From Naegleria gruberi (Eukaryota), in NCBI GenBank assembly GCA_000004985.1, contig GG738932.1: a stretch of 64,000 nucleotides of DNA. One strand, 5' to 3'. A program made the translations under genes and the position numbers. The first letter of the stretch is position 1, and every line of letters begins with the position of its first letter. This document shows, piece after piece, positions 1 through 14,342 of this stretch. The notes beneath the pieces are model-generated. The model worked only from the letters and a program-made list of their open reading frames with translations. It was not told the origin of the DNA and searched no databases.

Positions 1-453
1 CATCCTTTTCATTAAATTCTAAACCAGACGAAACCATTCCCTCAAATCCTACTCAATTATACAAAACGAAATCGTTTCAGTCAACCAACTCTACTCTCCT
101 TTTCAAGATCTTTCCAATTCTCCAAAACCAGCATCACAGGTTCATTTCAATTTTGTTCATTTTACAATTTATCAAATTTTCCCAAAAACCTTCCAGTCAG
201 GCCTCTAAATAGTTGAAAACATTTTTCTGCATCTAGCTGTATCCACTTCCAATCTCGTCCAATCGCTCCTTTTTCATCCAAGAGTCCAAACATTACTGTC
301 GCACTGGTTTTTTTCGTTACACCGCTTTTTATTTGTACTATGGTGATTCTCGAATATACTAGCTGATTCTCCATAACATTCATGAACAATGACATGAATA
401 TACGAGCTAGAGTAGTGAGGGAATGGAGGAATGCATAAGAAGACAACAACACC

Positions 454-1587
454 ATGTCCCAATTCAGCAGAATATTCAAAAAAAAAGAAACAACAACACC
501 CACACAATTTCTTCTTTTTGATTTTACAAAACTAATTTATATGATAATCGATATGAATCCTAATTCATTCTCGTCAAGAATTGTTACTGTTTCCTCCTCC
601 TCATCGTGCAATAGTAATAATACTTCAACTATTGCTCGTACATCCAATAATGGTGGATCGATTAGTAGTAACAGATCAACTGATTTGAATCAAGATCAAA
701 TTTTTGCACCCAATGCTTGGTGGAGAAGTTTTGGTAGTTCTGCTCAACAAGAACAATATGATAATTTGATTTCAATGCCATCATCAGGAAATGTCATTCA
801 AGAAGTGAGTGGTGACAGCTGCAGTGCTATTGACTGGGAGAGTTTCTTTGCTCCTTCTTCATGTCATTACGAACCTAAGGTAACAGCAATTCCAACTTCC
901 CGTGAACAAGTTTCCTGTAAAATTACAATCAACCCTAACTGTACCGAAAATAGTTTCAATAATTATTCAACAACAACGACAACAAACACAACAAATACAA
1001 CTAACAACGCCTCTAGTCTTGATGGAATGATTACCATGCTGAATAGAATATTAATAATGAATGGTGTCAATCCAGAGTCTAATCAATGCCAAATGCCTTC
1101 TGTTTCTTACCAACATTCTAATTTGGAAACGATTCCTTCCACATATGTTAACCAAACTGCCCATTTTACTTATAATCCAATTCAATCCATTGCTGAAGTG
1201 CATCATCAGAATTACAATACTTTGCCAAGTCAATCCCAACTCAATACTTCACTTTCTTCTTCATCCGATAGTGATAGCACAGGTAGTCAACATTCGAGTA
1301 ATTCTATCGGAAAGGACAGATGCAAAATCTCAAAGAAGAGAACCACAAGACCTAGGCTCAAATTCCAAAAGGAAACTGACAAGTCAATCAAGTTTAATCT
1401 AGTAACAAGTGAAGAATTGGCTGCCAGTTTACAATTTCATGAAACTTCGGCGCCAACTAGTGGAAAGAGAAATAGAGGAAGACCAAAGAAATCGGATTCA
1501 TCTCCTCAAAAACCTAAAGCTGATCAGTCGACAACCATTGAATTTATGGTCAATTGTTATGATCAATGCAGTAAAATTTTCAAATAA
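454..1587 (+). CDS. Low-complexity S/T/N-rich nuclear protein with a C-terminal AT-hook (KRNRGRPKK at nt 1465-1491), likely DNA-binding or chromatin protein
   Basis: Uninterrupted 377-codon ORF. ATG at 454 has a Kozak-like context (acaccATGt). The C-terminus carries a canonical AT-hook core R-G-R-P flanked by K/R (…SGKRNRGRPKKSDSSPQKPK…) and a second basic patch (KKRTTRPRLK). The N-terminal two-thirds is an S/T/N homopolymer-rich tract (TTTTTNTTNTTNN), consistent with the codon usage of the other genes. No recognisable catalytic domain. The true start could instead be the internal Met at 'MIIDMNPNSF'. Confidence 0.55.
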   Translation: MSQFSRIFKKKETTTPTQFLLFDFTKLIYMIIDMNPNSFSSRIVTVSSSSSCNSNNTSTIARTSNNGGSISSNRSTDLNQDQIFAPNAWWRSFGSSAQQEQYDNLISMPSSGNVIQEVSGDSCSAIDWESFFAPSSCHYEPKVTAIPTSREQVSCKITINPNCTENSFNNYSTTTTTNTTNTTNNASSLDGMITMLNRILIMNGVNPESNQCQMPSVSYQHSNLETIPSTYVNQTAHFTYNPIQSIAEVHHQNYNTLPSQSQLNTSLSSSSDSDSTGSQHSSNSIGKDRCKISKKRTTRPRLKFQKETDKSIKFNLVTSEELAASLQFHETSAPTSGKRNRGRPKKSDSSPQKPKADQSTTIEFMVNCYDQCSKIFK

Positions 1588-1723
1588 TTATAAAAACAAT
1601 TTTTCAATAATTCTTCTAATTATTTCACAATTTTAACGAATGTCATCTCTCACATATTGTTTCAATGTTGAAAAATAGAAAAATTGTGAAAAGTTCTATT
1701 CCAATAAGAATCACCATAACCTT

Positions 1724-3646
1724 TTATTGTTTGACCTTCTTTTGGGATGGTTCATATTTGGAATTATTGGTTGGATTATCCTCTCGTTTCAATCTCTTTT
1801 GAATTTCATTCTTGGTTGATTCCATCTTTAAGAGTTGTTTCAAAAGGAAAGATCCTTCACAATATTCAGCATAACGTGAATCTACAAGTTCAATAATCTT
1901 GTATCTACCATCTAGAGGATGGAAGTATGCCTTGGCAATTTGCTCATTCCTATTTCTAATTGAACTCAAATCGATGGTATTAACAAAATTAGCATCAACA
2001 TCAACTTCCATACAATGAACTCTCCAAATATCACCTTCATCACCCTTAATACAGAATTGAAGTGAGAGTTTTTGTGCAACGTGTTGCAGTCTGAAATAAG
2101 CAACTTGATTCATTCTAATGACTCTTTCTCTGTATAGTTCTGTAAATGTGCCTCTTGATTGGACATATTTATGGTAGTTATCAGAGTTGGAATTTGGGCT
2201 AATGTAATGTTTCAAATCATCAATGGTGATATTTTCAATCATATTCTCAACAGTATTGGCAACAGTTTTAAAGGCATTTGGTGAAGTCTTATCTTCACGA
2301 ATGAGAAGGAAATACCATCCACTTTTAGTCGAGTCGAATCCCATTTCAACAATTAATCCAGTTCCCTTTTGAAGATCCAAGAATTTAGCCAAAATATGTG
2401 GACTAATATCCTTCACTTGAACAGTATCGAAAAAGTGACTAATCTTTGAAAATTGGAAATATACATGGAATAAATTGTCATTGGCACCTTCTGCATGTTC
2501 TTTCAAACTTGAATTTTCATCTGGTGAAACTAGGAAATCACAGGTTAGTTTGTTTGGCCATTTCCACTTTAACAGGTAGTTATTAGCACCTGGTTTGAAA
2601 GCACTCAGGACTGCATCCTTTGGAGTGAAAACCAATCCATCATTCTTATTGTAATTTTTGTACAAGTATTCACCAGTTTCTGGATCCTCCTTAATGCATT
2701 CCATTACTTCCATCAATTTAGACTTTTCATAGAAATGTTTACGGATGAGTTTTAAACATTTTGGTGGATCTCTCTTTAAAATGATTTTATAATAGTGATA
2801 ATGTGGATCGGTAATGTATTTTTCTATGAATTCATATCGGTTGTTCATAGATTCTGCTCTTGCTGAAATTACCTTTTCTTTGCAAAATGTAATTAGGTCA
2901 TAAATTGAATAATTATTTCGTTGTTCTTTCAAGTTAAAGACTATTTCACCATCCAAGATTACAATATCTTGATAGCGACATTCCTCGAGTGTTTTAGTTT
3001 TTCTATTAATATTATCTCTTGATGGAAATGCAATTTCCTCAATACTAAGATAAAATTCAAAAGTTCTATCAAAAAAGAATGAAAAGGACCATCCTTTCAA
3101 TCTTTTCAACTTGATTGAAGAGTTTGTTACTGTATCAATCAGCAGTACTGTATTGGTTCTACTTAAATATTGTAAATTTGTATTTTCCATACAAGTTACT
3201 TTTAAAGTAGTGTCCTTTCCAGCTTGTTTAGCATGATGATAAATACATTCAATAGCACAATTATTCTTCAAATCAAATTGTTGAGTATTATCCGAATCAT
3301 GAACCCATCTAGGAAATTCCTTGCTTCTCAACATTAAACACATGGCACGAATACCATCTGATTTTTCTGTAATATAATAATCGTGCTCACTCAATAGATG
3401 AAGGGAAGTCCTGGAAAGCTGTACAGCCATTGGTCCTGGGAATATTCCTTCCTGATAAGAGTCTCCAAGGTTCTTACGAATAATATTTCTCAAGAAATTG
3501 GTTCCTTCCTGTCGATCAAATTGAACAGAAGGATCCATCATGTCTGTTAAAGCAAGATAGGCTTCATAATATGAATTTGATGATAAAGTACTATGTATAA
3601 AGGAACTAGAAATACGACAAAATTGGTTTGGATTTAATGTATCCAT
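1724..3646 (-). CDS. mRNA capping enzyme, stand-alone GTP:mRNA guanylyltransferase (fungal/protozoan type, not fused to an RNA triphosphatase)
   Basis: 640-aa single ORF containing the covalent nucleotidyltransferase motifs in the correct order. Motif I KxDG is 'YYITEKSDGIR' (catalytic Lys about residue 95). Motif III is 'VILDGEIVF', motif IV 'NDGLVFTPK', motif V 'NYLLKWKW', and motif VI 'WYFLLIREDKTSPN' (RxDK..PN). The upstream 'FPGPMAVQLSR…HDYYITEKSDGIR' matches yeast Ceg1 'FPGSQPVSF…HDYYVCEKTDGLR'. There is no N-terminal Cys-phosphatase (HCxxGxxR) domain. There is about 55 aa of extra sequence between motifs I and III, and a C-terminal extension of about 180 aa ending in a basic KRLKRED…KKVKQ tail. 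Confidence 0.85.
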   Translation of the reverse strand: MDTLNPNQFCRISSSFIHSTLSSNSYYEAYLALTDMMDPSVQFDRQEGTNFLRNIIRKNLGDSYQEGIFPGPMAVQLSRTSLHLLSEHDYYITEKSDGIRAMCLMLRSKEFPRWVHDSDNTQQFDLKNNCAIECIYHHAKQAGKDTTLKVTCMENTNLQYLSRTNTVLLIDTVTNSSIKLKRLKGWSFSFFFDRTFEFYLSIEEIAFPSRDNINRKTKTLEECRYQDIVILDGEIVFNLKEQRNNYSIYDLITFCKEKVISARAESMNNRYEFIEKYITDPHYHYYKIILKRDPPKCLKLIRKHFYEKSKLMEVMECIKEDPETGEYLYKNYNKNDGLVFTPKDAVLSAFKPGANNYLLKWKWPNKLTCDFLVSPDENSSLKEHAEGANDNLFHVYFQFSKISHFFDTVQVKDISPHILAKFLDLQKGTGLIVEMGFDSTKSGWYFLLIREDKTSPNAFKTVANTVENMIENITIDDLKHYISPNSNSDNYHKYVQSRGTFTELYRERVIRMNQVAYFRLQHVAQKLSLQFCIKGDEGDIWRVHCMEVDVDANFVNTIDLSSIRNRNEQIAKAYFHPLDGRYKIIELVDSRYAEYCEGSFLLKQLLKMESTKNEIQKRLKREDNPTNNSKYEPSQKKVKQ

Positions 3647-4564
3647 TCTTTGTATTGTTGATGATGATGAAACTCTATATGGGATGACTACTAGTTCCCT
3701 CTATATTGAAAGATGAGTAGATATCTATTTAAATCGGGATGGATAATGACTTGTTGTTGCTCCAGAGAGAGATGTATTCAGGTAAGTCACTTTATTCGGG
3801 TGTGTTTGTTGTTCTATGAATAAAATTATTTTTTTTTGAAGTGAATTTGTTGAAGTTTGCTGAGAAGTTTTCTTTTTTTTGAATATTTTTCAAAGTTATT
3901 TTTGGATCGTGTTGAAGAATGCATTCTTGATTTCAATGTACAATTTTATTTGTTGGTGAAGCTAATAAAAGAATTGATGAAGAGAATTCCCTTTAGATAG
4001 AAGATATTGGAATTAGTGTTGGAATGCTGATTGATGAATTTGTATTATCCAAAGATTAAATCTTGTTTTGCCACAAGTTACCGTTGCATAATTTCTTTTT
4101 GCAAATTAAAAAAAAATTACAGCAAGCCATCACACAGCAAAGAATATTTCATCCACATCCAATGGATTCTTAATTCTGTTCTTGTTAAAAGGTCAAAACA
4201 ATCTTTTACGCAAGCTAAAGCACAACATTTTTACTGGGTAACATGGCCTCCATTGCATCATCAACAATGTTCATCAAAGCCACATGTCGTATCAAAAGGT
4301 TCAACTTGTGGTCGTTCTCGTCCTCCAGTAATATCAAAAAGGAAGAGCAGTAGAAAAGACAGTCAATGTTTCGGGAGATGATAATAGTGGTCGTTTCAAT
4401 CTTCTGCTCCTCTTGAGGTTCTAATCAAATTCCATCTTGTAAATCTTAAAAATAATTTATTAAAAAAAAATTGAACAGATCATCACACAACTATTGTGAT
4501 TTTTATCATCAGTTTTAAATAATAATAATAGAAAAATACTTTTTAAAAATCATCACAGTACAGG

Positions 4565-5206
4565 ATGGGCTTGATGGATATATTTCATAAAAAGACTCCG
4601 GAAGAGTTGGCTAAAGAATGGAAGAAGGGATTAAAATCGGAAGTGAGAAATATGGATAGAGGTATTAGAAAGATTGAAATGGAGGAAATAAAGGTAAAGA
4701 ATAATATTAAAATGATGGTCAAGAAGGGACAAGAAGATAATGCTAAAATTGTTGCCAGAGAATTAATTAAAACTAGAAAGGCAAAGGAAAGGCTGATCAG
4801 AACAAAAGCTCAAATGAATTCCGTTATTTTACAATTGGATCAACAAGTGCAACAACTCAGAGTGATGGGAGCTTTACAGAAGAGTGCCGATGTAATGAAA
4901 TGTATGAATGAAATGATGAAATTACCAGATTTACAAGCAACGATGAGAAACATGTCCAAGGAAATGGAAAAGGCAGGTTTAATAGAGGAAATGGTTGATG
5001 ATATGATGGAAGATGTTTTTGAAGATGAGGATGTTGAAGAAGCTGCTGATGAGGAAGTTTCTGAAGTATTGAATGAAATTTTGGAAAATGTCAAATCAAC
5101 AAGAGTTGGATCATCAAAACTTCCACAAAAACAAGTTGAAGAAGAAGAGGAAGAGGATGAATCAGAATTGGAACTTCAAAAGAGATTATCATCTCTTAGA
5201 AATTAG
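4565..5206 (+). CDS. VPS24: ESCRT-III subunit CHMP3/Vps24 (Snf7 family)
   Basis: 213-aa ORF. It begins MGLMDIFHKK…ELAKEW… like metazoan CHMP3 (MGLFGK…ELVNEW…). Conserved blocks are KKGQ, 'KAQMNSV', 'LRVMGALQKSADVMKCM', 'LQATMRNMSKEMEKAGLIEEMVDDMMEDV', and an acidic C-terminus ending in a MIM-like helix 'EEEEEEDESELELQKRLSSLRN' (compare human '…EEEEEEALEAMQSRLATLRS'). The N-terminal half is basic and the C-terminal half acidic, as is typical of ESCRT-III. Confidence 0.85.
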   Translation: MGLMDIFHKKTPEELAKEWKKGLKSEVRNMDRGIRKIEMEEIKVKNNIKMMVKKGQEDNAKIVARELIKTRKAKERLIRTKAQMNSVILQLDQQVQQLRVMGALQKSADVMKCMNEMMKLPDLQATMRNMSKEMEKAGLIEEMVDDMMEDVFEDEDVEEAADEEVSEVLNEILENVKSTRVGSSKLPQKQVEEEEEEDESELELQKRLSSLRN

Positions 5207-5448
5207 ATATTTCGAACAAAAAACAATTATTTATTATAATATCTAGAGTTTAATAGTCTTCGTCCTGATTGCCAATGATCTGGACAGTTTGTAAAATATA
5301 AATTTGTAAATTTTGTTTTTTTAACAATTATAACTTACAGGAAGTGAATTATCACCAGTCGAATAACCTTTATATTCATCATTTCTTTGTTCTACACTAG
5401 AATAATGAGGCTTCACTATTAAAGTTCTTAATGTCAAGTTGTTGAAAG

Positions 5449-7857
5449 CTACTTACTAGGAGCTAGAGCCTCCAAAATCCACTCATGACGGAATGCTTCT
5501 TCTGGAGTCATTCTTTCAACTGGATCCCATCTCAAACAAGCTTCCATAAAGGAAACAAATTTTCTGTCTGGACAGTCAAGAGCTTGCTGGAGTGTGACAC
5601 TTCCTGGAATTCTCTTCTTGCCAGTTTTCTTGTTAATCACTAACCTAGGTTGACCATTAGAGTCGAAGAATTTCTTTCTTCTTGTACTGATCTGAATTAA
5701 TTTCTTGGAAGGCATTCCCATAACTTCCATAATATAACACAATTGTTCCAATTCGTTTCTTCCTGGGAATAGAGGATATCCTGTATATAATTCAGCAAGA
5801 ATACATCCAAAACTCCACATATCAATTGAACGACCATAAGAAATACCTAGAATAATTTCTGGAGATCTGTAAAATCTTGACTGAATATATGTATAGATTC
5901 TTTCATTTTCAAAACATGAACTACCAAAGTCAATCATCTTGATATCTGATTTTGTGGAAGATACCAACAAGATGTTTTCAGGTTTGAGATCGCAGTGAAT
6001 TATCTTTTCTTGACTCAAATATTGTAAAGAATTCAATATTTGCAAGGCGAATTTTCTGATTAGAGCCAAACTTAATCCTCTAAAATTGTTATTCTTAATG
6101 AACTCATAAAGGTTAATACTCAGTAATTCAAAAGCAATACATAAATGTTGTCTGAAAGTAAAGTAAGCAACCATTTCTATACAGTGGTGCTTTCCTTCCT
6201 TATCGTTATCTTTAAGATGTTTCAATATTTTAACTTCAACAAGAGCTTGGGCGTGGAATCTCTTTCTATTCCTAATCACTTTGAGAGCTACAAATTTGTT
6301 TTCCTTAACATCGTGGGCCTTGACTACTTGACCAAAACTTCCCTTTCCCAAAAATCCAACAACTTCATATCTGTAACCTATATGATCATTCAAAACAAGT
6401 TTGTAATCACCCCTTTCATCGTCATAACCAAAGTTCATCTCCTCGTTGGCATTTACTGTTCCCTTAATCTTTCTCGCTGTGCTACCTATACAGTACACTT
6501 TGTGGAAATCGAAAATTTCAGATTGCTCGTAATCTGTCAAGTAATCACTATACATTTTTATGGCAGCAGCTGGAGTGATTGGATCATGGAATTTAAGATT
6601 CACATTTCCACCTGTATTAGAACTAGAAGTTCTAATAGACCTCACAGAGGAAGACCTAGAACTTGGATTTGATTGTTGATTACTAGTTGTTGTACTTGTT
6701 GATGAGGCAACATCGAACACTGTTGTTTTATCTTCCGACGTATATTTGAAAGGAAGATTTTGGAATGAAGTGGTTTCTGCATTGGCAGCTCTTGCACTCA
6801 TTGGCATTGATGGCTGTTGTTTGGCTGTGGTATTTCTAGCAGTCTTGACAGTTTCTGGAACTCCTGACCCAAATCCTTCAAATTCCACATCTTTCATATA
6901 GTTGGCTGTTTGCAAATTCAAATTGAGTTTAAGGGTTGGAGGTTGAGCAGATGCTCCACTAGTTGGAGGATGTGGAACCAAATTACTTTGTGAGGAAGGA
7001 TTGGCAAAGTTATATCTTCTGGCACTATTAGGTGCTGTCGTTTGAGAGTGACCACTGCTGACTGTGCTTGGTTCTTCTGTTGCATAGCTCTGTGAAGAAA
7101 TGACAGCAACATTTGAAACTGAGGGTTTTCTTGGCACTGGAGGTCTTGGAGTGAGATAGGAAGCAGCTCCAATATTAGCAGTGATGATTGTTTCCTTTTT
7201 TGTTCCAGATGATGATGTTATTGATTTTGTCGAGTTGGTTTTGGAGACTGTTCCTATTCGTTTTGTGGTTCCTTTAGTGTAGCCTACCGTGTTTTGCTTA
7301 GTGTTTGGACTGATATTCCTTGGAGTGTTCATTGTGCTTTTTTGATTTGTTATTGAAGATGAAACTAGCCCTCCGATTTGAGGTTGGGAAGGATAGTATT
7401 GATATCGTGGAGTGTTATTTGTACTAGCTACATTGTGAGATGGTGGTGTTTTGTACATTTGTCGAGCAGAATTATATCCTCCTACCGAACCTCTATTTGT
7501 GGAACCTCTACTTGAAGGGGGTCCTCCAGTAGGTGTCTTTTTCGAGTTCTGTAATCCATTCAGATTCAAACTCAAACTTGGTGGTTGTTTTTTTGGAGCT
7601 GTGTCTGAAGAAAAAGGATTCAATTCATCCGAACTAATCAGAGCATTTAAGATTGATGTTGTCGAGTTTAGTTGATCGATTTCCAGAGGAGGAACGCCAG
7701 ATTTATATTTTCTTCCTGGACTTTGGTAAGAAGGGACCGGGTTATTGGTATTGGTATTATTAGATGGAGGACTTGGCATCATGATGTACGTTCCTCGCTT
7801 ATCGGCTCCATTTCTAACCAGCATTACTCCACCACTTGATGAGTCCTTATTATTCAT
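5449..7857 (-). CDS. Dual-specificity tyrosine-phosphorylation-regulated kinase, class II (DYRK2/Pom1-like), with a long N-terminal low-complexity region
   Basis: 802-aa ORF. Residues about 480-795 (nt about 5473-6420) form a protein kinase domain with GKGSFGQV (Gly loop), VALK, HCDLKPENILL, DFGSS, and the DYRK activation-loop 'YTYIQSRFYRSPE' (YxY). It is preceded by the DYRK-homology box 'NFGYDDERGDYKLVLNDHIGYRYEV', which matches human DYRK2 '[23 protein letters not shown]'. Residues 1-440 (nt about 6540-7857) are S/T/N/P-rich low complexity. The protein ends shortly after the kinase domain (…RHEWILEALAPSK). Confidence 0.9.
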   Translation of the reverse strand: MNNKDSSSGGVMLVRNGADKRGTYIMMPSPPSNNTNTNNPVPSYQSPGRKYKSGVPPLEIDQLNSTTSILNALISSDELNPFSSDTAPKKQPPSLSLNLNGLQNSKKTPTGGPPSSRGSTNRGSVGGYNSARQMYKTPPSHNVASTNNTPRYQYYPSQPQIGGLVSSSITNQKSTMNTPRNISPNTKQNTVGYTKGTTKRIGTVSKTNSTKSITSSSGTKKETIITANIGAASYLTPRPPVPRKPSVSNVAVISSQSYATEEPSTVSSGHSQTTAPNSARRYNFANPSSQSNLVPHPPTSGASAQPPTLKLNLNLQTANYMKDVEFEGFGSGVPETVKTARNTTAKQQPSMPMSARAANAETTSFQNLPFKYTSEDKTTVFDVASSTSTTTSNQQSNPSSRSSSVRSIRTSSSNTGGNVNLKFHDPITPAAAIKMYSDYLTDYEQSEIFDFHKVYCIGSTARKIKGTVNANEEMNFGYDDERGDYKLVLNDHIGYRYEVVGFLGKGSFGQVVKAHDVKENKFVALKVIRNRKRFHAQALVEVKILKHLKDNDKEGKHHCIEMVAYFTFRQHLCIAFELLSINLYEFIKNNNFRGLSLALIRKFALQILNSLQYLSQEKIIHCDLKPENILLVSSTKSDIKMIDFGSSCFENERIYTYIQSRFYRSPEIILGISYGRSIDMWSFGCILAELYTGYPLFPGRNELEQLCYIMEVMGMPSKKLIQISTRRKKFFDSNGQPRLVINKKTGKKRIPGSVTLQQALDCPDRKFVSFMEACLRWDPVERMTPEEAFRHEWILEALAPSK

Positions 7858-8067
7858 GATTTGAGCTATTATTCTCTCGAGGTGATGTATTTTTCTTATT
7901 AAATCCTCAAGTTATTATCGTCGACAAGTGAGAATAACTACTGATGATGACGTAAACAGGAGAGAGTAATCTTCTTTTCAATTAGAGATTATATCCACCA
8001 CACTATTTTCCTCAATCAATTCCTGAGAGATAGAACAGCTAATTTTTTTTTTGGGTTTTTTCAAGAA

Positions 8068-8080
8068 TTGGCGCCAAATT
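8068..8080. promoter_or_regulatory. E2F-like palindromic site TTGGCGCCAAATT in the divergent promoter between the DYRK gene and the IQ-motif gene
   Basis: The perfect 10-bp palindrome TTGGCGCCAA reads on the lower strand as TTTGGCGCC, which matches the E2F consensus TTTSSCGC. GGCGCC is rare in this AT-rich sequence. Confidence 0.35.
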
Positions 8081-8749
8081 TTTGCTGTAGATGCATCTAA
8101 GCGTTATTGTTGTTGAAAATGTAGATTTGTTGATCCAAAATATATAACTATGATGTAATTATTGTCTTGTTGTTATTGTTCAAGGGACAAATTACCATTG
8201 AAACTGCCTCACGAACGAACTGTTTTCAACCTTTTACCACCACTGTGTGTTTATTTTAAACGCAACAATTACCTCAAACCCTCAACAATGTAATAAACAA
8301 GGAAATTCGTATGGAGAATTGTTCCTGTCCAATAGATATGATGATTCTTAATTGTTGATTATATGCTAATTTTCATCCATTGAGAAGGATGCATGCTCTA
8401 CTCCAATATAAAATGAAAGGAAGTAACAAGTTTTGGAAAATGTACAACAAGTTTCATAATCCATCGATTCAACAACTGTACGACCCTCAACAGAACCAAC
8501 CTCTCTTCTAACTGAACAACGATCGTAAATTACAATTTATATTATCTTCTTGTGATGATGGGAAGTGATGATTCTTTAATAACACTACCTTTCAAAAAAT
8601 CAAAAAACAAAAACTTGATACATTCTTTCTTGTCATTATTCCTCATCACAATAAATTCATCATCATCAAGTTTATTATAATTTTTTTAAAACAATTTCAT
8701 AACGGAACTATTTGGAGCCTTAAAATTATTCCTTACATTTTTTAAAAAA

Positions 8750-10441
8750 ATGCTTAAAAACAGTTTTAATTCAACCTCAATGATGAGAAAGAAAATTTCC
8801 TCCAAGCTGGAAAATAGAGAGGAATTCGGAGCGAAGGAAATAATTACGAGGAATGATAAGGTGGAATATACAATTATGAATATTCATGATAGGAGGGCTG
8901 ATGAGGACAATTTAAAAAAGAATCAACGACAATTGAATGAAATTCTTACAAGAACTTTATATGAGGCACAACGTAATTTGAGTGATTTGTCTAGTTTGAC
9001 AAAGAAAAAGTTGGGTCCGAAGGCATTACTCTATCAACAACAATCACTGGTGGATGATACTGATCCATTATCTGCCTTGGGTGATGTTGGAAACTTTGAT
9101 TCAGTTAGTGAGGAAGATGGAATCAAGACAGATAAGCTTGATGAACTCGGCTCGACAACAATGTCATCGAGCATCATGAAGAAGGCCAGTAATAACAAGT
9201 TGAATGCCATGACCGAGAATCTCATGTTGAATCAATTAATTGATCTTGTCGATCAGAAGAAGAGAGAAAAACAACAGGAAGGTATCTTTGATAATTCTTT
9301 GAGGGAAATCTTTTTGAGAACAAGAGGTCTCATTGAAAACTTGTGGGATGAAATGAACATTGAAGACTCTGAGAGAAGAGATTTCTCCAGAAGATTCTTC
9401 TACCCTGAAACGCTAATTAACTATGTTTCCATCTTTAGAGAAATTACGCGATTGACTGGAGTAAGATCCATTCAACACGATGTCTTAACGAGTTTGGAAC
9501 AAAGAGAAGTCTACATTAAGAGACTGAAAGAAATTGCAATGCAATTCAACGGATATAGGGCTGGGGCATCTTCACTCATGGGTAGATTGCAAGATCCTAT
9601 GGTAAAGAATGAAATTCCGACCATTGTCTCCAATTTGAGAAATGTAACAATAGAACTTGTGGAATCTATTCTATTGTGGAGAAGTCAACTTACGAAGAAA
9701 ACTGTATTTTTATATAACGGAGAGAATTACATGCTCAAGATGAGAAATGATGTTGACTTTTTGAAACTTACAGAACTGGCTCCATTATTTGAAATTGTTG
9801 GAATTACAATTGATTCCAATCCATTACTATTACCTGATGATGTAAGAGGAAATAACAATATTTCATTCGATGAATATGTGAATGAAATCTTGAATGAAGG
9901 TGATGAGAATATCAATAAGAGCCAAACCGCATTGACTCTTGTGGAACACTATCAATCTAAGAGAGATCACGACAAGAAACAAGCCAATAGATTTAATGAA
10001 GACCAAAATCTTCAAAACATTCCTCGTGTTCTCAAAATCAACTTGCCTTTCGCTTACATGGAAAGATTGAGAAGATCAGACAAGTTCATCTTCCAAGAAG
10101 AATTGTACATTAAACTATTAGAAGATAGAGCAATGAGAGATCAAGCAGCTACAAAAATTCAAAGCCAGTGGAGAAGCTTCCTTGCCAGAAGATACATGAA
10201 GAGATTGAAAATGGAAACCAAGAAGGCTGCAGCTTACACGAATTCGAATAACTTCCTCAATCAACAAAAGAAACAAACTTTGAGAAATGAGGCAGTCATC
10301 CGTAATCTTCCAAAGAAAATTGAAGCACTAACAACAAAGGATTTGATTGAGGAATTGGAAAAGAATAGAAAGGCCGATGTTTTCCTTGATTCTCTCAATA
10401 TTTCAGGACGTTATTCAACTTCCATTTTCGATTTTGAGTAG
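8750..10441 (+). CDS. Hypothetical coiled-coil protein with a C-terminal IQ calmodulin-binding motif
   Basis: 563-aa uninterrupted ORF with codon bias like its neighbours. It contains the IQ motif 'AATKIQSQWRSFLARRYMKRLK' near residue 480 and predicted coiled-coil, charged K/E/R-rich segments. No catalytic motifs recognised. AATAAA lies 7 nt after the stop (10448-10453). Confidence 0.6.
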   Translation: MLKNSFNSTSMMRKKISSKLENREEFGAKEIITRNDKVEYTIMNIHDRRADEDNLKKNQRQLNEILTRTLYEAQRNLSDLSSLTKKKLGPKALLYQQQSLVDDTDPLSALGDVGNFDSVSEEDGIKTDKLDELGSTTMSSSIMKKASNNKLNAMTENLMLNQLIDLVDQKKREKQQEGIFDNSLREIFLRTRGLIENLWDEMNIEDSERRDFSRRFFYPETLINYVSIFREITRLTGVRSIQHDVLTSLEQREVYIKRLKEIAMQFNGYRAGASSLMGRLQDPMVKNEIPTIVSNLRNVTIELVESILLWRSQLTKKTVFLYNGENYMLKMRNDVDFLKLTELAPLFEIVGITIDSNPLLLPDDVRGNNNISFDEYVNEILNEGDENINKSQTALTLVEHYQSKRDHDKKQANRFNEDQNLQNIPRVLKINLPFAYMERLRRSDKFIFQEELYIKLLEDRAMRDQAATKIQSQWRSFLARRYMKRLKMETKKAAAYTNSNNFLNQQKKQTLRNEAVIRNLPKKIEALTTKDLIEELEKNRKADVFLDSLNISGRYSTSIFDFE

Positions 10442-10447
10442 TAATTC

Positions 10448-10453
10448 AATAAA
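10448..10453 (+). terminator. AATAAA poly(A)-signal-like hexamer inside the 26-bp spacer between convergent stop codons
   Basis: The plus-gene stop is at 10439-10441 and the minus-gene stop at 10468-10470. AATAAA sits between them. On the minus strand an ATAAAT hexamer (plus-strand TTTAT, 10457-10461) serves the opposite gene. The two 3' UTRs must overlap. Confidence 0.3.
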
Positions 10454-10467
10454 TAATTTATGTACAA

Positions 10468-10938
10468 TTATTGTTCTAGAAGTTTGGGTAATTTTTCCTT
10501 CGCCATATCTTTGATTTCCTGTTTGATTTGTGACTCTGATTTTCCTTCTCTATTCTTCATAATTTCTGGTCTTATTTTCTCGATGTGTTCCTTTAATAAT
10601 TTACTGTATGGATTATTTTCCAAATTTTTCGAATGTTTTGGATTATTTCTAATAAGATACATGGCAATCCAATTAATCGGATCGATCTTTGAGTAGATAG
10701 TACTCTTTAATTTTTCATATTCTTGTTCCTCTTCCGATTTCGGATCAACTGTTGAATACTCCTTTAATAAGGATTGAAAAGCAGGAATCAGCACTCCCAA
10801 AATATTTTCCTCCAAATAAAACGACAGCTCATCGCCACCCTCCCGAGCCAATCTAATGGTTGTTTCATCCTCTCCGAGCGATTCCTCAACATGAAAATTG
10901 TATTCGTGATGAAGAGGCGAAGCAAAGTGCTTTTTCAT
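10468..10938 (-). CDS. Dpy-30 (RIIa-like dimerisation/docking) motif protein with a 24-aa acidic insertion between the two motif helices
   Basis: 156-aa ORF. 'YLEENILGVLIPAFQSLLKE' matches the Dpy-30 helix-1 consensus '[20 protein letters not shown]', and 'IDPINWIAMYLIRNNP' matches helix 2 'PNPIEFLASYLLKN'. The two are separated by an in-frame acidic insert (STVDPKSEEEQEYEKLKSTIYSK). The residues encoded by nt 10684-10758 read straight through with no GT…AG intron in frame. Confidence 0.55.
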   Translation of the reverse strand: MKKHFASPLHHEYNFHVEESLGEDETTIRLAREGGDELSFYLEENILGVLIPAFQSLLKEYSTVDPKSEEEQEYEKLKSTIYSKIDPINWIAMYLIRNNPKHSKNLENNPYSKLLKEHIEKIRPEIMKNREGKSESQIKQEIKDMAKEKLPKLLEQ

Positions 10939-11097
10939 TTTTTTAAAGAATTTTTATCGTAGTTATTTTTGGCGCCATTTTAGTCAATCTGAATGGTAAT
11001 TAGTTTAAGATCATAAAATATTAGAATTCAAAGAAGTAAGCGAGCGAGTGATAAATATTTTCATTTTGTTTGCCCACTAAATAATTAACCAAAAAAA
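10939..11097. promoter_or_regulatory. Very short (159 bp) head-to-head bidirectional promoter
   Basis: Divergent start codons at 10938 (-) and 11098 (+). The spacer is AT-rich and contains the GGCGCC palindrome. Confidence 0.4.
10966..10983. promoter_or_regulatory. E2F-like site TTTTTGGCGCCATTTTAG in the 159-bp bidirectional promoter shared by the Dpy-30 gene (-) and the LRR gene (+)
   Basis: TTTGGCGCCA contains the 8-bp palindrome TGGCGCCA. It lies about 30 bp upstream of the minus-strand ATG at 10938 and about 115 bp upstream of the ATG at 11098. It is the same core as the site at 8068-8080. Confidence 0.35.
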
Positions 11098-12705
11098 ATG
11101 ACTCTACACGAAAGTACTCTTATTCGAAACAATAGTTTATTTCCCGATGATGTTTGTTTCGAAATTATCGATTACTTTGATTCTCCATTTATCATCAAAA
11201 CGTGTTCTTTAATTTCACATCAATTTTTACGTGTCATAAAATTATATTCGAATCTTGTGGTCAATTTCCTAATGATTACTTCAGAACAAATTAATCAATT
11301 TTCAAAAAGTCAATTTTTAGGAAATATAAGAAAGGTTAGAATAGCAAGTCATCAAATTGAAGGAGAAATAGGTGTTAAATTATTGGAAACTTTATCAGAA
11401 ATGAAAAATTTAACCTATTTGAATATTGATTGGAATAAAATTTCAGAAAAGTCTAAAATTATTCTTTCTGGAATGAAACACTTGAAAATACTTGCTGCTA
11501 GCGGATCTGAAATTGATAAATTTAGTCGATTGGATCAATTGACTGAACTAAATGTCAATTGGAATCGTTTAAAAGATGAAGATGTAAAATCTATTGGAAA
11601 TTTGAAAAATTTAACTTTATTAGAATTGAGTGGAAATGAAATTTCTAAAAATTCAATGAAATTTATTAGTCAGCTCTCAGAATTAACAAAACTTTCTGTG
11701 GGATTGAATTCAATTGAAAATGAAGGAATCAATTCAATAATCAATCTTTCAAAATTGACTTGTCTAAACATTATTAATGCAAATATTACTTCAGAAGGTG
11801 TCAAATTAATTGGAAAACTATCAAACTTAACCATTCTCGATATTAGTGGAAATTTAATTGGAGCTGAAGGAGGTCAATACATTGGAGAATTGAATAATCT
11901 CAAAATACTTGTGGCAAGTGATAATGAACTTGGAGTGTTTGGAGCAAAGAGCATTGGAGAAATGAATCAATTAACTTCACTTTGTTTGATAGGCAATTCT
12001 ATTGGAAATGAAGGAGCCAAGTATATTTCTCAATTAACCCAATTGACTGATCTTGATTTGGGAAGAAATGAAATAGGTAATGAAGGATTTAAACTACTAA
12101 CAAAACTTGAAAAGTTGACAAATTTAGATATGGTTTCTAATAACATTTCTGATTTGAGTTCGATTGGTCAATTGGGTTTATTAAACTGCCTTGATGTCAG
12201 AAAAAACAAAATAGAGGACACGGGCATAAGAAATATTTGTCAATTGGGTGGATTGAATGCACTTCGTCTTTGCGGAAATCCAATCACTTCAGAAGGAGCC
12301 AAAATATTATCAGAAATGGTTCAATTGACCAATTTATCAATAAGTGAGACCCATATTGATGACGAAGGAGCCAAATTTATAGCACAATTGACAACTCTGA
12401 AATATCTTGATATAAGTACTAAAAGAATAACCGCGAATGGTGTCAAATTTATTTGCCAATTATCAAAACTAATCTCACTCGATATTAATTGGAATAATAT
12501 TGGAGACGAGGGAGTGTTATATATTAGCAGAATGCAACAATTAGAAACACTAAATGCTGTTTATTGTAATATTGGATTGGAAGGCGCAAAACTCTTGAGT
12601 GAAATGGAACAATTGACCGTACTTGATGTGAAAATTAAAAGGATACCTGGAGAGGGAATTCAATTATTAGAAAATATTGCACGATTTAAATCATTAGTTG
12701 TGTAA
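11098..12705 (+). CDS. F-box-like / ribonuclease-inhibitor-type leucine-rich repeat protein (about 17 LRRs)
   Basis: 535-aa ORF. Residues about 14-50 'LFPDDVCFEIIDYFDSPFIIKTCSLISHQFLRVI' fit the F-box pattern (LPxEIlxxIfxyLdxxdLlxlxxVckxW). Residues about 95-520 are tandem 24-25-aa repeats of the form L(T/S)xLxIxxNxIGxEGAKxIxxLxx (RI/NLR-like LRR_6 type), for example 'LTSLCLIGNSIGNEGAKYISQLTQLTDLDLGRNEIGNEGFKLLTKL'. Confidence 0.8.
   Translation: MTLHESTLIRNNSLFPDDVCFEIIDYFDSPFIIKTCSLISHQFLRVIKLYSNLVVNFLMITSEQINQFSKSQFLGNIRKVRIASHQIEGEIGVKLLETLSEMKNLTYLNIDWNKISEKSKIILSGMKHLKILAASGSEIDKFSRLDQLTELNVNWNRLKDEDVKSIGNLKNLTLLELSGNEISKNSMKFISQLSELTKLSVGLNSIENEGINSIINLSKLTCLNIINANITSEGVKLIGKLSNLTILDISGNLIGAEGGQYIGELNNLKILVASDNELGVFGAKSIGEMNQLTSLCLIGNSIGNEGAKYISQLTQLTDLDLGRNEIGNEGFKLLTKLEKLTNLDMVSNNISDLSSIGQLGLLNCLDVRKNKIEDTGIRNICQLGGLNALRLCGNPITSEGAKILSEMVQLTNLSISETHIDDEGAKFIAQLTTLKYLDISTKRITANGVKFICQLSKLISLDINWNNIGDEGVLYISRMQQLETLNAVYCNIGLEGAKLLSEMEQLTVLDVKIKRIPGEGIQLLENIARFKSLVV
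11380..12660 (+). repeat. Tandem ~72-75 nt coding repeats (RI-type LRR units) inside the LRR gene
   Basis: A periodic protein motif …L(T/S)xLDIsxNxIGxEGAKxI… recurs about 17 times. The nucleotide periodicity (ttgac…aat/gga…gaagga gccaa) is visible by eye. Confidence 0.6.
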
Positions 12706-12818
12706 AATTCAATTAAACAATTCCCTTTCCTGGATCAATGAAGATCAAGTTTTACGTCTCTTCCACCCATTTGTTGTTTTGTTTACAACTCAAAGTTCCC
12801 CGCCTTATTGATTTCATC

Positions 12819-13127
12819 TTAGTAATGATCAACCACTTTCATTTTTTTCCTCAGTTCCTTGATTATTCTATCCGAAATATCATCACCAATATAAAGTTTC
12901 CTCAGCATTCCACTAATTGCCTCGAGTCCTTCATTTCCAATTTTATTTCCCGAAAGGTTTAGTTTGGTTAAATTTTCCATCCCACTTAATGATTTTGCTC
13001 CCTCAATTCCAATAGTACTGTCATAGATACGGAGATTAGTCAATTGATTTAGTTCACTTATTATTTTAGCTCCTGAATCTCCAATTTGATTATCACTAAT
13101 TAAAAGTCTCGTTAATTGTTTCAGTTA
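12819..13127 (-). CDS. Partial LRR protein, C-terminal fragment of a paralogue of the upstream LRR gene, truncated by the 50-N gap (possible pseudogene or flawed gap edge)
   Basis: The minus-strand frame reads …LKQLTRLLISDNQIGDSGAKIISELNQLTNLRIYDSTIGIEGAKSLSGMENLTKLNLSGNKIGNEGLEAISGM…KVVDHY*, the same RI-type repeat family as 11098-12705. The ORF runs into the N spacer at 13128-13177. An in-frame TAA sits at 13125-13127, exactly at the gap edge. This suggests either mis-assembly or error next to the gap, or a disrupted copy. Confidence 0.5.
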
Positions 13128-13177
13128 NNNNNNNNNNNNNNNNNNNNNNNNNNNNNNNNNNNNNNNNNNNNNNNNNN
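13128..13177. other. Assembly gap (50 N spacer)
   Basis: A run of exactly 50 N. It interrupts the minus-strand LRR gene. Confidence 0.99.
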
Positions 13178-13435
13178 GATCACATCAACTTTTTATGACC
13201 CAGTGAATTTGTCAATTGGGCACAAATTCGTGGAGCTGTCCAAACAGAAACTAAAGAAACAGCAAAGCCTATTCCAGTTGTGTGATCTTTCCACATGATC
13301 TCAGTTCATAATAGACACAAGAAAACACAATGCTAATAATAAAAATATAATTTTATTTAATTATTGAAATATGTGGAAAGATTTCCAACCTTGAAATTTA
13401 CCTAGTTGGAAAATTTACCATTAGTGAATTTTATT

Positions 13436-14200
13436 GATGGTGTGATGATGATGACCATTAAGATATTTACCTTAATGATCGGACTTGCTGATGATATTGA
13501 TGATAAAAGATATGATGAAGTGAAAATTCCACAACTCGATGAATACTAAGTGGAAAATTCAAACTCTCTTGATGGTGATATTAGACATCCCTACTAATGA
13601 TACTACGTTGTTGAAATTCAATCATCATGATGAAAATATATGGTGAATGATGAATACACCACCAACAAGGTGAAAACTCCAAATATCCAAAAACTATTAT
13701 TCGGAGTGTTGTTGATGATGTATTTGAATGGTACTATTCGAAGAAAGTTTGGTTGATGATGAAGTACATGTTGAAATATGGTCCATGTAATATTTTGAAT
13801 ATATGCATGTACCTATCTTGATGAAAACAAAATTCCAATCTATGAAATTCGAATATGTATTGCTTTATACTATTACAAATAATCCCACATATGAATTTCT
13901 GATGATGATTCACCAACTTTAATTTTTCCAATAACAAAATTACTATCTAATTCCATAACAATAAACTTCCACATAAAATTACTATTATTACTATTATATT
14001 GATGATGTATAGATGATGAGGTTCAATTCTTGGAGTGGGAAGATGAAGAACCACTCTGAAAATAAACTACTCATAAAATTGATATTTTTTATGAATGCTA
14101 GATACGTCTTTATTGAGTTTGCTGTATGATGAAAGTATAATAAAAATTACTACTGTAACTACTATTTAAATGATGTTGAGATGATGATGTGAAAGTTTGG
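13436..14200 (+). repeat. Non-coding block strongly enriched for strand-specific TGATGA / TTGATGATG motifs (about 17 copies on the plus strand against 2 TCATCA), interspersed with GGAAAATTCC-like imperfect palindromes. It could be a degenerate dispersed repeat, a C/D-box-snoRNA-like cluster, or the edge of a repeat array
   Basis: TGATGA occurs at 13443, 13446, 13489, 13498, 13513, 13628, 13648, 13713, 13754, 13757, 13819, 13900, 13903, 14000, 14014, 14127 and 14182. TTGATGATG(T/A) recurs at 13712, 13753 and 13999. No ORF of convincing length or composition is present. The canonical D box CTGA is rare, occurring only at 13488, 13899 and 14056. Confidence 0.5.
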
Positions 14201-14342
14201 TAGCTTACAGATATGAAACCACTCAAAGAATCATCAAGTCATTGACTTTATTTTTAGGTCTTCATTAAGTTGATCAGGTGAAACGGTTTCAAGATGCTTT
14301 CTTCTCTCACCCAAAGAAGTGATGGTGTTGAAAATAGCATCA

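What the first reader, a model, noticed from the sequence alone, without database searches (positions are those of the whole stretch)
8068..8080. GC-rich E2F-like palindrome TTTGGCGCC(A) present in both bidirectional promoters (8068-8080 and 10966-10983)
In AT-rich intergenic DNA, the only two GGCGCC hexamers outside coding sequence both fall in head-to-head promoter regions. One is DYRK <-> IQ-motif gene and the other is Dpy-30 <-> LRR gene. Both are embedded in the same extended word TTTGGCGCCA(A/T), which fits the E2F/DP consensus TTTSSCGC and is itself palindromic, so it is suited to a bidirectional element. A third copy (TTCGGCGCCAAC, 1446-1457) lies inside gene 1 coding sequence and may be coincidental. 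Usage of an E2F-type element argues against an ascomycete yeast. Together with the compact, intron-less layout and a stand-alone guanylyltransferase, it fits protists that keep E2F/DP, for example Cryptosporidium-like apicomplexans, where a similar GC-rich palindrome has been described upstream of replication genes. The organism assignment is inference only.
Basis: partly seen in the sequence, partly recalled or inferred. Interest (0 to 1): 0.5.

Follow-up and report, generated by a model that had tools for sequence, protein, structure and literature searches.

The report
Conserved E2F-type promoter sites in Naegleria

Summary
GGCGCC occurs three times in the 14.3 kb of real sequence; the rest of the window is N. 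Two copies are intergenic (8070, 10971) and one is in an annotated coding sequence (1449). Composition predicts about 0.07-0.3 copies.

The contig is Naegleria gruberi (Heterolobosea), not a Cryptosporidium-like apicomplexan.

Site 1 (AATTGGCGCCAAATT, 8066-8080) matches the human E2F1 SELEX consensus. It is the longest exact word that the otherwise unalignable DYRK-IQ spacers of N. gruberi, N. fowleri and N. lovaniensis share. It lies 201-213 bp from the DYRK start codon in all three. Weaker variants lie upstream of DYRK in another Naegleria-like contig and in Willaertia, where IQ is no longer the neighbour.

Site 2 (10966-10981) lies 31 bp upstream of a Dpy-30-motif gene. N. fowleri (TTTGGCGGG) and N. 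lovaniensis (GTTCGCGCC) have E2F-type variants at the same place, next to a different neighbour.

N. gruberi encodes E2F, DP, an E2F7/8-like protein and RB. The recognition helix of its E2F is identical to that of human E2F4.

In about 122 kb of heterolobosean DNA, TTSSCGC sites are about 6-fold enriched between genes and depleted within them.

The E2F reading is therefore supported. The bidirectional-element idea and the taxon are not. No binding data or replication-gene promoters could be examined. This is a new member of a known kind, of modest interest.

The parts
8066..8080 (.). Site 1: AATTGGCGCCAAATT, an E2F-type palindrome about 213 bp upstream of the DYRK2-like start codon (7857, minus strand)
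   Evidence: Searches show the sequence. It is the longest exact match between the N. gruberi spacer and the N. fowleri and N. lovaniensis DYRK-IQ spacers (13 and 12 nt), at 210-211 and 199 bp from the DYRK ATG. It is the only GGCGCC in each 21.7-kb orthologous locus. Variants lie upstream of DYRK in L009 and in Willaertia.
8043..8061 (.). T10-GGG-T6 tract next to site 1, read as an A-run downstream of the site in the DYRK direction. It is a conserved companion of the site in Naegleria species.
   Evidence: An A7-A10 run lies 5-13 nt from the site in N. gruberi, N. fowleri, N. lovaniensis and L009. L009 shares the TTTGGGTTTT context with N. gruberi.
10966..10981. Site 2: TTTTTGGCGCCATTTT, an E2F-type site 31 bp upstream of the Dpy-30-motif gene ATG (10938, minus strand) and 129 bp upstream of the LRR gene ATG
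   Evidence: Searches show the sequence. It is kept in a 98%-identical strain. E2F-type variants lie at -71 in N. fowleri (TTTGGCGGG) and at -62 in N. lovaniensis (GTTCGCGCC) upstream of the orthologous gene.
1446..1457 (+). Site 3: TTCGGCGCCAAC inside a coding sequence (codons for T-S-A-P-T). Probably incidental.
   Evidence: It lies in the annotated protein EFC36333, near the 3' end of a gene that is convergent with the capping-enzyme gene. No promoter is nearby.
5449..7857 (-). DYRK2/3-class dual-specificity kinase gene (EFC36361), the likely target of site 1
   Evidence: Exact match to the N. gruberi protein. Pfam Pkinase. E = 2.6e-126 to human DYRK2.
8750..10441 (+). IQ-motif protein gene (EFC36335), the divergent neighbour of DYRK. 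It is about 680 bp from site 1.
10468..10938 (-). Small gene with a sub-threshold Dpy-30 motif (EFC36362), the likely target of site 2
   Evidence: Dpy-30 motif 19.3 bits against a cut-off of 22. Orthologues sit downstream of IQ in all four species.
11098..12705 (+). LRR (RNI-like) protein gene, the divergent neighbour of the Dpy-30-like gene in N. gruberi only
   Evidence: One search shows the LRR domains. No orthologue was found in N. fowleri or N. lovaniensis; the best hit is a 43%-identical metagenome fragment.

Best explanation
The two intergenic TTGGCGCCA words are promoter-proximal E2F-type cis-regulatory sites of Naegleria gruberi. Site 1 belongs to the promoter of a DYRK2-class kinase gene. 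Site 2 belongs to the promoter of a small Dpy-30-motif gene.

The inferred mechanism is as follows. The Naegleria E2F-DP heterodimer, or the two-domain E2F7/8-like DEL protein, binds the CGCGCC/GGCGCC core. The T/A-rich flanks are read by the E2F subunit. The RB homologue then gates transcription of the adjacent gene with growth or cell-cycle state.

Shown here: sequence match, promoter-proximal position, conservation in orthologous promoters, concentration of such sites between genes, and presence of the factors with an identical recognition helix.

Inferred: actual binding by E2F/DP, the direction of regulation, and the cell-cycle timing.
For: 1. Site 1 equals the human E2F1 SELEX consensus ATTGGCGCCAAA. 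Both sites match TTTSSCGC.
2. In N. fowleri and N. lovaniensis the only GGCGCC in 21.7 kb is TTTGGCGCCAAA, 212 and 201 bp from the DYRK ATG. In N. gruberi the distance is 213 bp.
3. The surrounding spacers do not align. The motif is their longest shared exact word.
4. Another Naegleria-like contig has TTTTGGCGG 79 bp upstream of DYRK in the same T-run/GGG context. Willaertia has GTTGGCGCAAAA 55 bp upstream of DYRK, in a rearranged neighbourhood.
5. Upstream of the Dpy-30-like gene, N. gruberi has TGGCGCCAAA, N. fowleri TTTGGCGGG and N. lovaniensis GTTCGCGCC. The variation falls at the positions the E2F consensus allows to vary.
6. N. gruberi has E2F, DP, DEL and RB. E2F orthologues occur in N. 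lovaniensis, N. fowleri, Willaertia and Acrasis. In the alignment to human E2F4 of the E2F4-DP2-DNA structure 1CF7 (E = 7.3e-25), the stretch [23 protein letters not shown] is identical.
7. Across six heterolobosean loci (about 122 kb), TTSSCGC sites number 10 between genes (1.55 expected) and 2 within genes (6.7 expected). After collapsing orthologous sites the counts are 6 and 2. All but one intergenic site lie 31-211 bp upstream of a start codon.
Against: - There are no binding or expression data.
- No canonical E2F target promoter (MCM, PCNA, RNR, CDC6) could be fetched, so the link to the replication regulon is untested.
- The E2F gene's own promoter in N. lovaniensis has no such site.
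- The Acrasis E2F locus has none, and its two GGCGCC copies are in genes.
- The N. lovaniensis capping-enzyme site is not conserved in the other two species.
- The putative targets, a DYRK2-like kinase and a Dpy-30-motif protein, are not classical E2F targets.
- The enrichment sample is small and partly overlaps the data that raised the hypothesis.
- The pattern definitions for site-2 conservation were widened after seeing the data.
Confidence: 0.65

Rival explanations
1. The sites are real, conserved cis-elements, but another Naegleria DNA-binding protein that prefers a GGCGCC or CGCC core reads them. E2F would not be involved.
For: Conservation and intergenic enrichment show function but not which factor binds. 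The neighbouring genes are not classical E2F targets. The E2F gene's own promoter lacks the site.
Against: The 12-mer is identical to the E2F1 SELEX optimum. Orthologous sites vary as TTTGGCGCC, TTTGGCGGG and TTCGCGCC, which is the degeneracy known for E2F. The E2F and DP recognition helices are unchanged. From general knowledge, no other widely conserved factor has this specificity.
Confidence: 0.2
2. One reading: a shared bidirectional element. Its palindromic symmetry would let one site drive both genes of each head-to-head pair.
For: In N. gruberi both sites lie between divergent genes. E2F palindromes can in principle be bound in either orientation.
Against: The distance from site 1 to DYRK is fixed at 201-213 bp, while its distance to IQ varies from 404 to 680 bp. 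In Willaertia the site stays with DYRK in a tandem gene arrangement, and the IQ promoter has none. The site-2 counterparts in N. fowleri and N. lovaniensis face the 3' end of Dus. The LRR partner has no orthologue in those species.
Confidence: 0.12
3. Chance occurrences of a rare hexamer with no function.
For: Site 3 is in a coding sequence and fits this reading. One CCCCGCC lies between two convergent 3' ends. The counts in a 14-kb window are small, and the P values are post hoc.
Against: For site 1, TTGGCGCCAA has about 0.01 expected copies per 21.7 kb, yet it sits at the same offset in three species within unalignable DNA. For site 2, E2F-type words occur in the 121-bp and 71-bp orthologous spacers, where my estimate from the densities is about 0.02 and 0.01 expected.
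Confidence: 0.04
4. The palindrome acts at the nucleic-acid level. It would be an RNA hairpin in a 5' UTR, a cruciform, or a remnant of a retroelement tRNA primer-binding site (TGGCGCC is complementary to a tRNA 3' end).
For: The word is a perfect 8-12 nt palindrome, and TGG starts many primer-binding sites.
Against: Folding 60-nt contexts on both strands gives z-scores from -0.79 to +0.83. There are no Rfam or tRNA hits. I saw no LTR or retroelement ORFs nearby. Orthologous variants break the palindrome but keep the E2F half-site.
Confidence: 0.02

Closest known systems
Animal and plant E2F/DP binding sites (TTTSSCGC; palindromic optimum TTTGGCGCCAAA; E2F4-DP2-DNA structure 1CF7)
   Same: The 12-mer is identical or nearly so. 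It is promoter-proximal. The factor has an identical recognition helix. Orthologous sites vary as TTTGGCGGG and TTCGCGCC, both of which are documented E2F sites (quoted in PMC3734150).
   Different: The adjacent genes here are a DYRK2-class kinase and a Dpy-30-motif protein, not replication or G1/S genes. No binding, RB dependence or cell-cycle periodicity has been shown in Naegleria.
Cryptosporidium parvum E2F motif 5'-TGGCGCCA-3' (Oberstaller et al. 2013, PMC3734150)
   Same: It has the same core octamer, sits in AT-rich compact intergenic DNA, and was inferred computationally from upstream over-representation. That organism also retains E2F/DP.
   Different: The lineage is different (Alveolata against Discoba). 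C. parvum lacks RB, while Naegleria has it. In C. parvum the motif is the most abundant upstream motif, found upstream of about 2,379 genes. In the sample here it occurs at roughly one in ten promoters.
E2F7/8 (DEL) sites, TTCCCGCCAAAA
   Same: N. gruberi encodes a two-domain DEL protein. The N. fowleri site-2 variant, GTCCCGCCAAATTTT, resembles this consensus.
   Different: Sites 1 and 2 in this window have the GGCGCC core typical of E2F1-6/DP rather than CCCGCC. These data cannot tell which family member binds.

Membership tests
E2F/DP-type cis-regulatory site | Sequence matches the consensus TTTSSCGC, or the palindromic optimum TTTGGCGCCAAA | tested here: met
   Site 1 matches on the minus strand as TTTGGCGC, and its 12-mer ATTGGCGCCAAA equals the E2F1 SELEX motif. 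Site 2 matches on the plus strand as TTTGGCGC.
E2F/DP-type cis-regulatory site | The genome encodes the cognate E2F and DP proteins with intact RRxYD DNA-contact helices | tested here: met
   NgruE2F, NgruDP, NgruDEL and NgruRB sequences are in the PMC4862756 source data. The E2F is confirmed as an N. gruberi protein carrying PF02319 and PF16421. The alignment to E2F4 in 1CF7 shows an identical helix.
E2F/DP-type cis-regulatory site | Promoter-proximal position upstream of a gene | tested here: met
   The sites lie 213 bp (DYRK) and 31 bp (Dpy-30-like) upstream of start codons. Transcription start sites are unknown.
E2F/DP-type cis-regulatory site | Conservation in orthologous promoters beyond the background | tested here: met
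   Site 1 is kept in N. fowleri and N. lovaniensis as an exact 12-13 nt word in unalignable spacers, and as variants in L009 and Willaertia. Site 2 is kept as sequence-variant E2F-type words in N. fowleri and N. lovaniensis.
E2F/DP-type cis-regulatory site | Enrichment of the motif in upstream regions across the genome | tested here: inconclusive
   Only about 122 kb could be sampled. Between genes there are 10 sites against 1.55 expected, and within genes 2 against 6.7 expected. After collapsing orthologues the counts are 6 and 2, P about 1.6e-3 by my binomial estimate.
E2F/DP-type cis-regulatory site | Association with DNA-replication and G1/S genes | not testable with these tools
The MCM paper's supplements hold no sequences. 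The E2F gene's own promoter lacks the site.
E2F/DP-type cis-regulatory site | Physical binding by E2F/DP and RB-dependent regulation | not testable with these tools
   This needs EMSA, PBM or ChIP, and expression data from synchronised cells.
   Five ORFs are exact matches to Naegleria gruberi NEG-M proteins on a 195,009-bp scaffold. The closest orthologues are in N. lovaniensis, N. fowleri and Willaertia.

The most novel reading that the evidence does not exclude
E2F in Heterolobosea may control a non-canonical, lineage-conserved target set. That set would include a DYRK2-class kinase, a kinase family tied elsewhere to cell-cycle and quiescence control, and a Dpy-30-motif protein. The palindromic E2F code would then date back to before the Discoba split. 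If such targets include genes used in the amoeba-to-flagellate switch, E2F could be one of the missing regulators of cilia and centriole genes in Naegleria, which lacks RFX, FoxJ1 and XAP5 (PMC12183034). This would echo the role of E2F4/5 in animal multiciliated cells.
Probability: 0.15. Interest if true: 0.6.

Novelty: new member of a known kind. Interest (0 to 1): 0.3.

Why it matters
E2F, DP and RB are thought to date from the last eukaryotic common ancestor. Their binding sites, however, have been documented mainly in animals, plants and a few protists. A conserved TTTGGCGCCAAA site in Naegleria, Willaertia and their relatives would show that the cis-code is also retained in Discoba.

It would also give a concrete handle for mapping the E2F regulon in Naegleria, including the pathogen N. 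fowleri: a motif, two candidate targets and the factor sequences. The literature searches here found no description of E2F sites in Naegleria. The result is nonetheless what one would predict from the known presence of the factors.

Tried and rejected
- Fetching the N. gruberi scaffold around the window failed. The assembly is not in the gene-position index, and only short metagenome contigs from a 98%-identical strain were found.
- Global MAFFT alignment of the DYRK-IQ spacers did not place the N. gruberi site with the others. I replaced it with a maximal-exact-match analysis and a local alignment.
- The search for LRR orthologues, meant to test whether site 2 travels with the LRR gene, found no orthologue in N. 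fowleri or N. lovaniensis.
- E2F autoregulation was not seen. The N. lovaniensis E2F locus has no site. Willaertia has TTTGGCGC, but inside the annotated first exon. The N. fowleri E2F is not on record, and the Acrasis E2F locus has none.
- A JGI metagenome scan for DYRK relatives returned nothing.
- Looking for Naegleria MCM sequences in a paper's supplements found none.
- Looking for expression data on these genes failed. The papers are not held and the gene identifiers appear nowhere in the library.
- RNA-structure, Rfam and tRNA/primer-binding-site readings were rejected.
- My first Markov simulation timed out. I replaced it with analytic expectations.

Full report
**What the window is**

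Only positions 1-13127 and 13178-14342 are real sequence. The rest is N. The real part is 33% G+C, with CpG at 0.53 and TpA at 0.61 of expectation.

Five ORFs are exact matches to annotated proteins of Naegleria gruberi NEG-M on a 195,009-bp scaffold:
- EFC36333, an unnamed serine-rich protein, 454-1587 (+)
- EFC36334, Snf7-family, 4565-5206 (+)
- EFC36361, a kinase, 5449-7857 (-)
- EFC36335, an IQ-motif protein, 8750-10441 (+)
- EFC36362, a protein with a weak Dpy-30 motif, 10468-10938 (-)

The window also holds an mRNA-capping enzyme ORF (1724-3646, -) and an LRR ORF (11098-12705, +). The kinase is a class II DYRK, with E = 2.6e-126 to human DYRK2. The organism is therefore a heterolobosean amoeboflagellate, not a Cryptosporidium-like apicomplexan.

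**The observation**

GGCGCC occurs three times, at 1449, 8070 and 10971.
- Site 1 is AATTGGCGCCAAATT (8066-8080).
- Site 2 is TTTTTGGCGCCATTTT (10966-10981).
- Site 3, TTCGGCGCCAAC, lies in the coding sequence of EFC36333.

Expected counts for the 14.3 kb are 0.07-0.3, depending on model order. TTTSSCGC occurs only at the two intergenic sites. The description is accurate. The common word TTTGGCGCCA(A/T) requires reading site 1 on the minus strand.

**Site 1 is conserved**

The IQ protein has orthologues in N. lovaniensis (75% identity), N. fowleri (74%), an unnamed Naegleria-like metagenome contig (67%) and Willaertia magna (50%). I fetched the corresponding loci.

In N. fowleri and N. lovaniensis the block Snf7-DYRK-IQ-Dpy30 is syntenic with the window. 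In each 21.7-kb locus the only GGCGCC is TTTGGCGCCAAA in the DYRK-IQ spacer. It lies 212 and 201 bp from the DYRK start codon, compared with 213 bp in N. gruberi.

The spacers are otherwise too diverged for MAFFT to align the N. gruberi copy. A maximal-exact-match analysis shows the motif is the longest word shared between N. gruberi and each other species: 13 and 12 nt, at offsets 211/210 and 211/199. A T/A run next to the site is also kept.

In the Naegleria-like contig L009 the DYRK start is 355 bp from the IQ start. TTTTGGCGG lies 79 bp upstream of DYRK, in the same TTTGGGTTTT context as in N. gruberi.

In Willaertia the gene order is rearranged. DYRK now follows another gene in tandem and IQ is elsewhere, yet GTTGGCGCAAAA lies 55 bp upstream of DYRK. 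The IQ promoter has no such word.

The element therefore belongs to the DYRK promoter, not to a shared bidirectional unit. Its distance to IQ varies from 404 to 680 bp.

**Site 2 is kept as a variant**

Site 2 sits 31 bp upstream of the Dpy-30-like ATG. A 98%-identical N. gruberi-like strain keeps it, which says little.

In N. fowleri and N. lovaniensis the gene upstream of the Dpy-30 orthologue is a tRNA-dihydrouridine synthase in tandem orientation. The LRR gene has no detectable orthologue in those species.

Even so, the 121-bp and 71-bp spacers there contain GTCCCGCCAAATTTT and GTTCGCGCCAGT. The first is TTTGGCGGG on the other strand, 71 bp from the ATG. The second is 62 bp from the ATG. 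Both are documented E2F-type words (TTTGGCGGG and TTTCGCGC; quoted in PMC3734150).

From the densities, I estimate about 0.02 and 0.01 expected E2F-type words in spacers of that size. I widened the pattern after seeing the data, so this support is weaker than for site 1. Willaertia has only a degenerate TTTCCCACCAA.

**The trans factors**

The source data of Medina et al. 2016 (PMC4862756) contain N. gruberi E2F, DP, a two-domain DEL (E2F7/8-like) protein and RB.

The E2F sequence is in the protein collection as an N. gruberi protein carrying PF02319 and PF16421. It has orthologues in N. lovaniensis, N. fowleri, Willaertia and Acrasis.

It aligns to human E2F4 of the E2F4-DP2-DNA complex 1CF7 at E = 7.3e-25. 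The stretch [23 protein letters not shown] is identical. The DP helix, NIRRRVYDALNVLMA, is also canonical. The same DNA specificity is therefore expected; this step is an inference.

The N. gruberi 12-mer ATTGGCGCCAAA equals the human E2F1 HT-SELEX consensus listed in PMC5449588.

**A small enrichment test**

I used the called genes of six loci, about 122 kb in total: the window, one N. fowleri locus, two N. lovaniensis loci and two Willaertia loci.

| TTSSCGC sites | Observed | Expected (first-order composition) |
|---|---|---|
| Between genes | 10 | 1.55 |
| Within genes | 2 | 6.7 |

Collapsing orthologous sites gives 6 intergenic and 2 genic. My binomial estimate is P of about 1.6e-3, given a null intergenic share of about 0.21. 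Apart from N. lovaniensis L004:4103, every intergenic site lies 31-211 bp upstream of a start codon.

New instances include:
- CTTGGCGCG, 88 bp upstream of an unnamed N. lovaniensis gene
- GTTCGCGCG, 55 bp upstream of the N. lovaniensis capping-enzyme gene; this one is not conserved in the other species
- TTTGCCGC in a 112-bp divergent promoter next to an MGMT-like gene in Willaertia

Counter-examples exist too. A CCCCGCC lies between two convergent LRR 3' ends in the window. The Acrasis E2F locus has GGCGCC only inside genes.

**What could not be done**

The N. gruberi assembly itself cannot be reached. I obtained no replication-gene locus, because the three protein searches went to the IQ, E2F and LRR proteins and a literature route gave no sequences. 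The E2F gene's own promoter shows no site in N. lovaniensis. No expression data for these genes were found.

Assignment to E2F, rather than to some other factor, therefore rests on four things: motif identity, the pattern of allowed variation, the conserved DNA-binding domains, and the lack of a known alternative.

**Rejected alternatives**
- Chance is excluded for site 1 by the conservation.
- An RNA or DNA structural role is not supported. Fold z-scores are about 0, there are no Rfam or tRNA hits, and the orthologous variants break the palindrome while keeping an E2F half-site.
- A general core-promoter element is unlikely. Of the four spacers in the window that contain a gene's 5' end, two carry the motif. 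In the other loci only about one promoter in ten does.

**Verdict**

The finding is real, and its core interpretation as an E2F-type promoter element is the best-supported reading (about 0.65). The organism call is wrong and the bidirectional rationale is not supported.

E2F sites are a well-known kind of element, and E2F, DP and RB were already known in Naegleria. The searched literature does not describe their cis-elements in this lineage. This is a new member of a known kind, of modest interest.

Noticed in passing
window 14343-64000 and 13128-13177: About 78% of the window is N padding, and there is a 50-N scaffold gap. Statistics computed on the whole source, such as the 0.04 expected GGCGCC, refer to only 14.3 kb of real sequence.
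   Followed up: yes
window 1-14342: CpG is at 0.53 and TpA at 0.61 of expectation. The retained CpG-containing E2F-type words stand out against this depletion. N. gruberi is discussed in the DNA-methylation literature found. I did not examine whether methylation affects these sites.
   Followed up: no
window 3736 region (about 90 bp upstream of the capping-enzyme ATG at 3646, minus strand); L002 about 18415; L004 about 20624: The capping-enzyme promoters of three Naegleria species share TCCCGAT followed by a TATA-like A/T stretch: CATCCCGATTTAAATA, CTTCCCGATAAATA and CTTCCCGATATAAAGA. It lies 26-33 bp before the ATG in N. fowleri and N. lovaniensis and about 90 bp before it in N. gruberi. This may be a core-promoter element and is distinct from E2F. 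It also suggests that the true N. fowleri start is 18448, not the 18553 of the NCBI model.
   Followed up: partly
window 12819-13127 (-): This is the 3' end of a second LRR gene, convergent with the LRR gene at 11098-12705 and cut by the scaffold gap. A CCCCGCC at 12799 lies between the two 3' ends and is probably incidental.
   Followed up: partly
window 11098-12705; L002 and L004 downstream of the Dpy-30-like gene: The LRR gene next to the Dpy-30-like gene has no detectable orthologue in N. fowleri or N. lovaniensis, where a Dus gene occupies that side. Synteny also breaks to the left of Snf7: the capping enzyme is about 9-11 kb away on the other side in the other species. The LRR ORF and the capping-enzyme ORF are not in the protein collection as exact sequences, so the annotated models must differ from these ORFs.
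   Followed up: partly
L002:9748-9764 and L004:9861-9877 (IQ-proximal part of the DYRK-IQ spacer): N. fowleri and N. lovaniensis share a 17-mer, AAAAGAAAATTTACGAC, and a nearby TGTAAATTTGAA. Only GTAAATT is shared with N. gruberi. This may be an IQ-gene promoter element.
   Followed up: no
L007:10046 (Willaertia magna E2F locus): TTTGGCGC lies 45 bp inside the annotated first exon of the Willaertia E2F gene. That exon encodes an N-terminal extension absent from the Naegleria E2F models. If the exon is mis-annotated, this would be an E2F site in the E2F gene's own leader.
   Followed up: partly
L004:4103 and L004:12338: Two N. lovaniensis intergenic sites share the 10-mer CTGGCGCGAA, which is TTCGCGCCAG on the other strand. 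One of them is 17 bp past a gene's 3' end and 625 bp from the nearest start codon, so its target is unclear.
   Followed up: no
window 454-1587: EFC36333 is a low-complexity Ser/Thr/Asn-rich protein with an AT-hook-like GRPKK near its C-terminus. It has no Pfam match.
   Followed up: no
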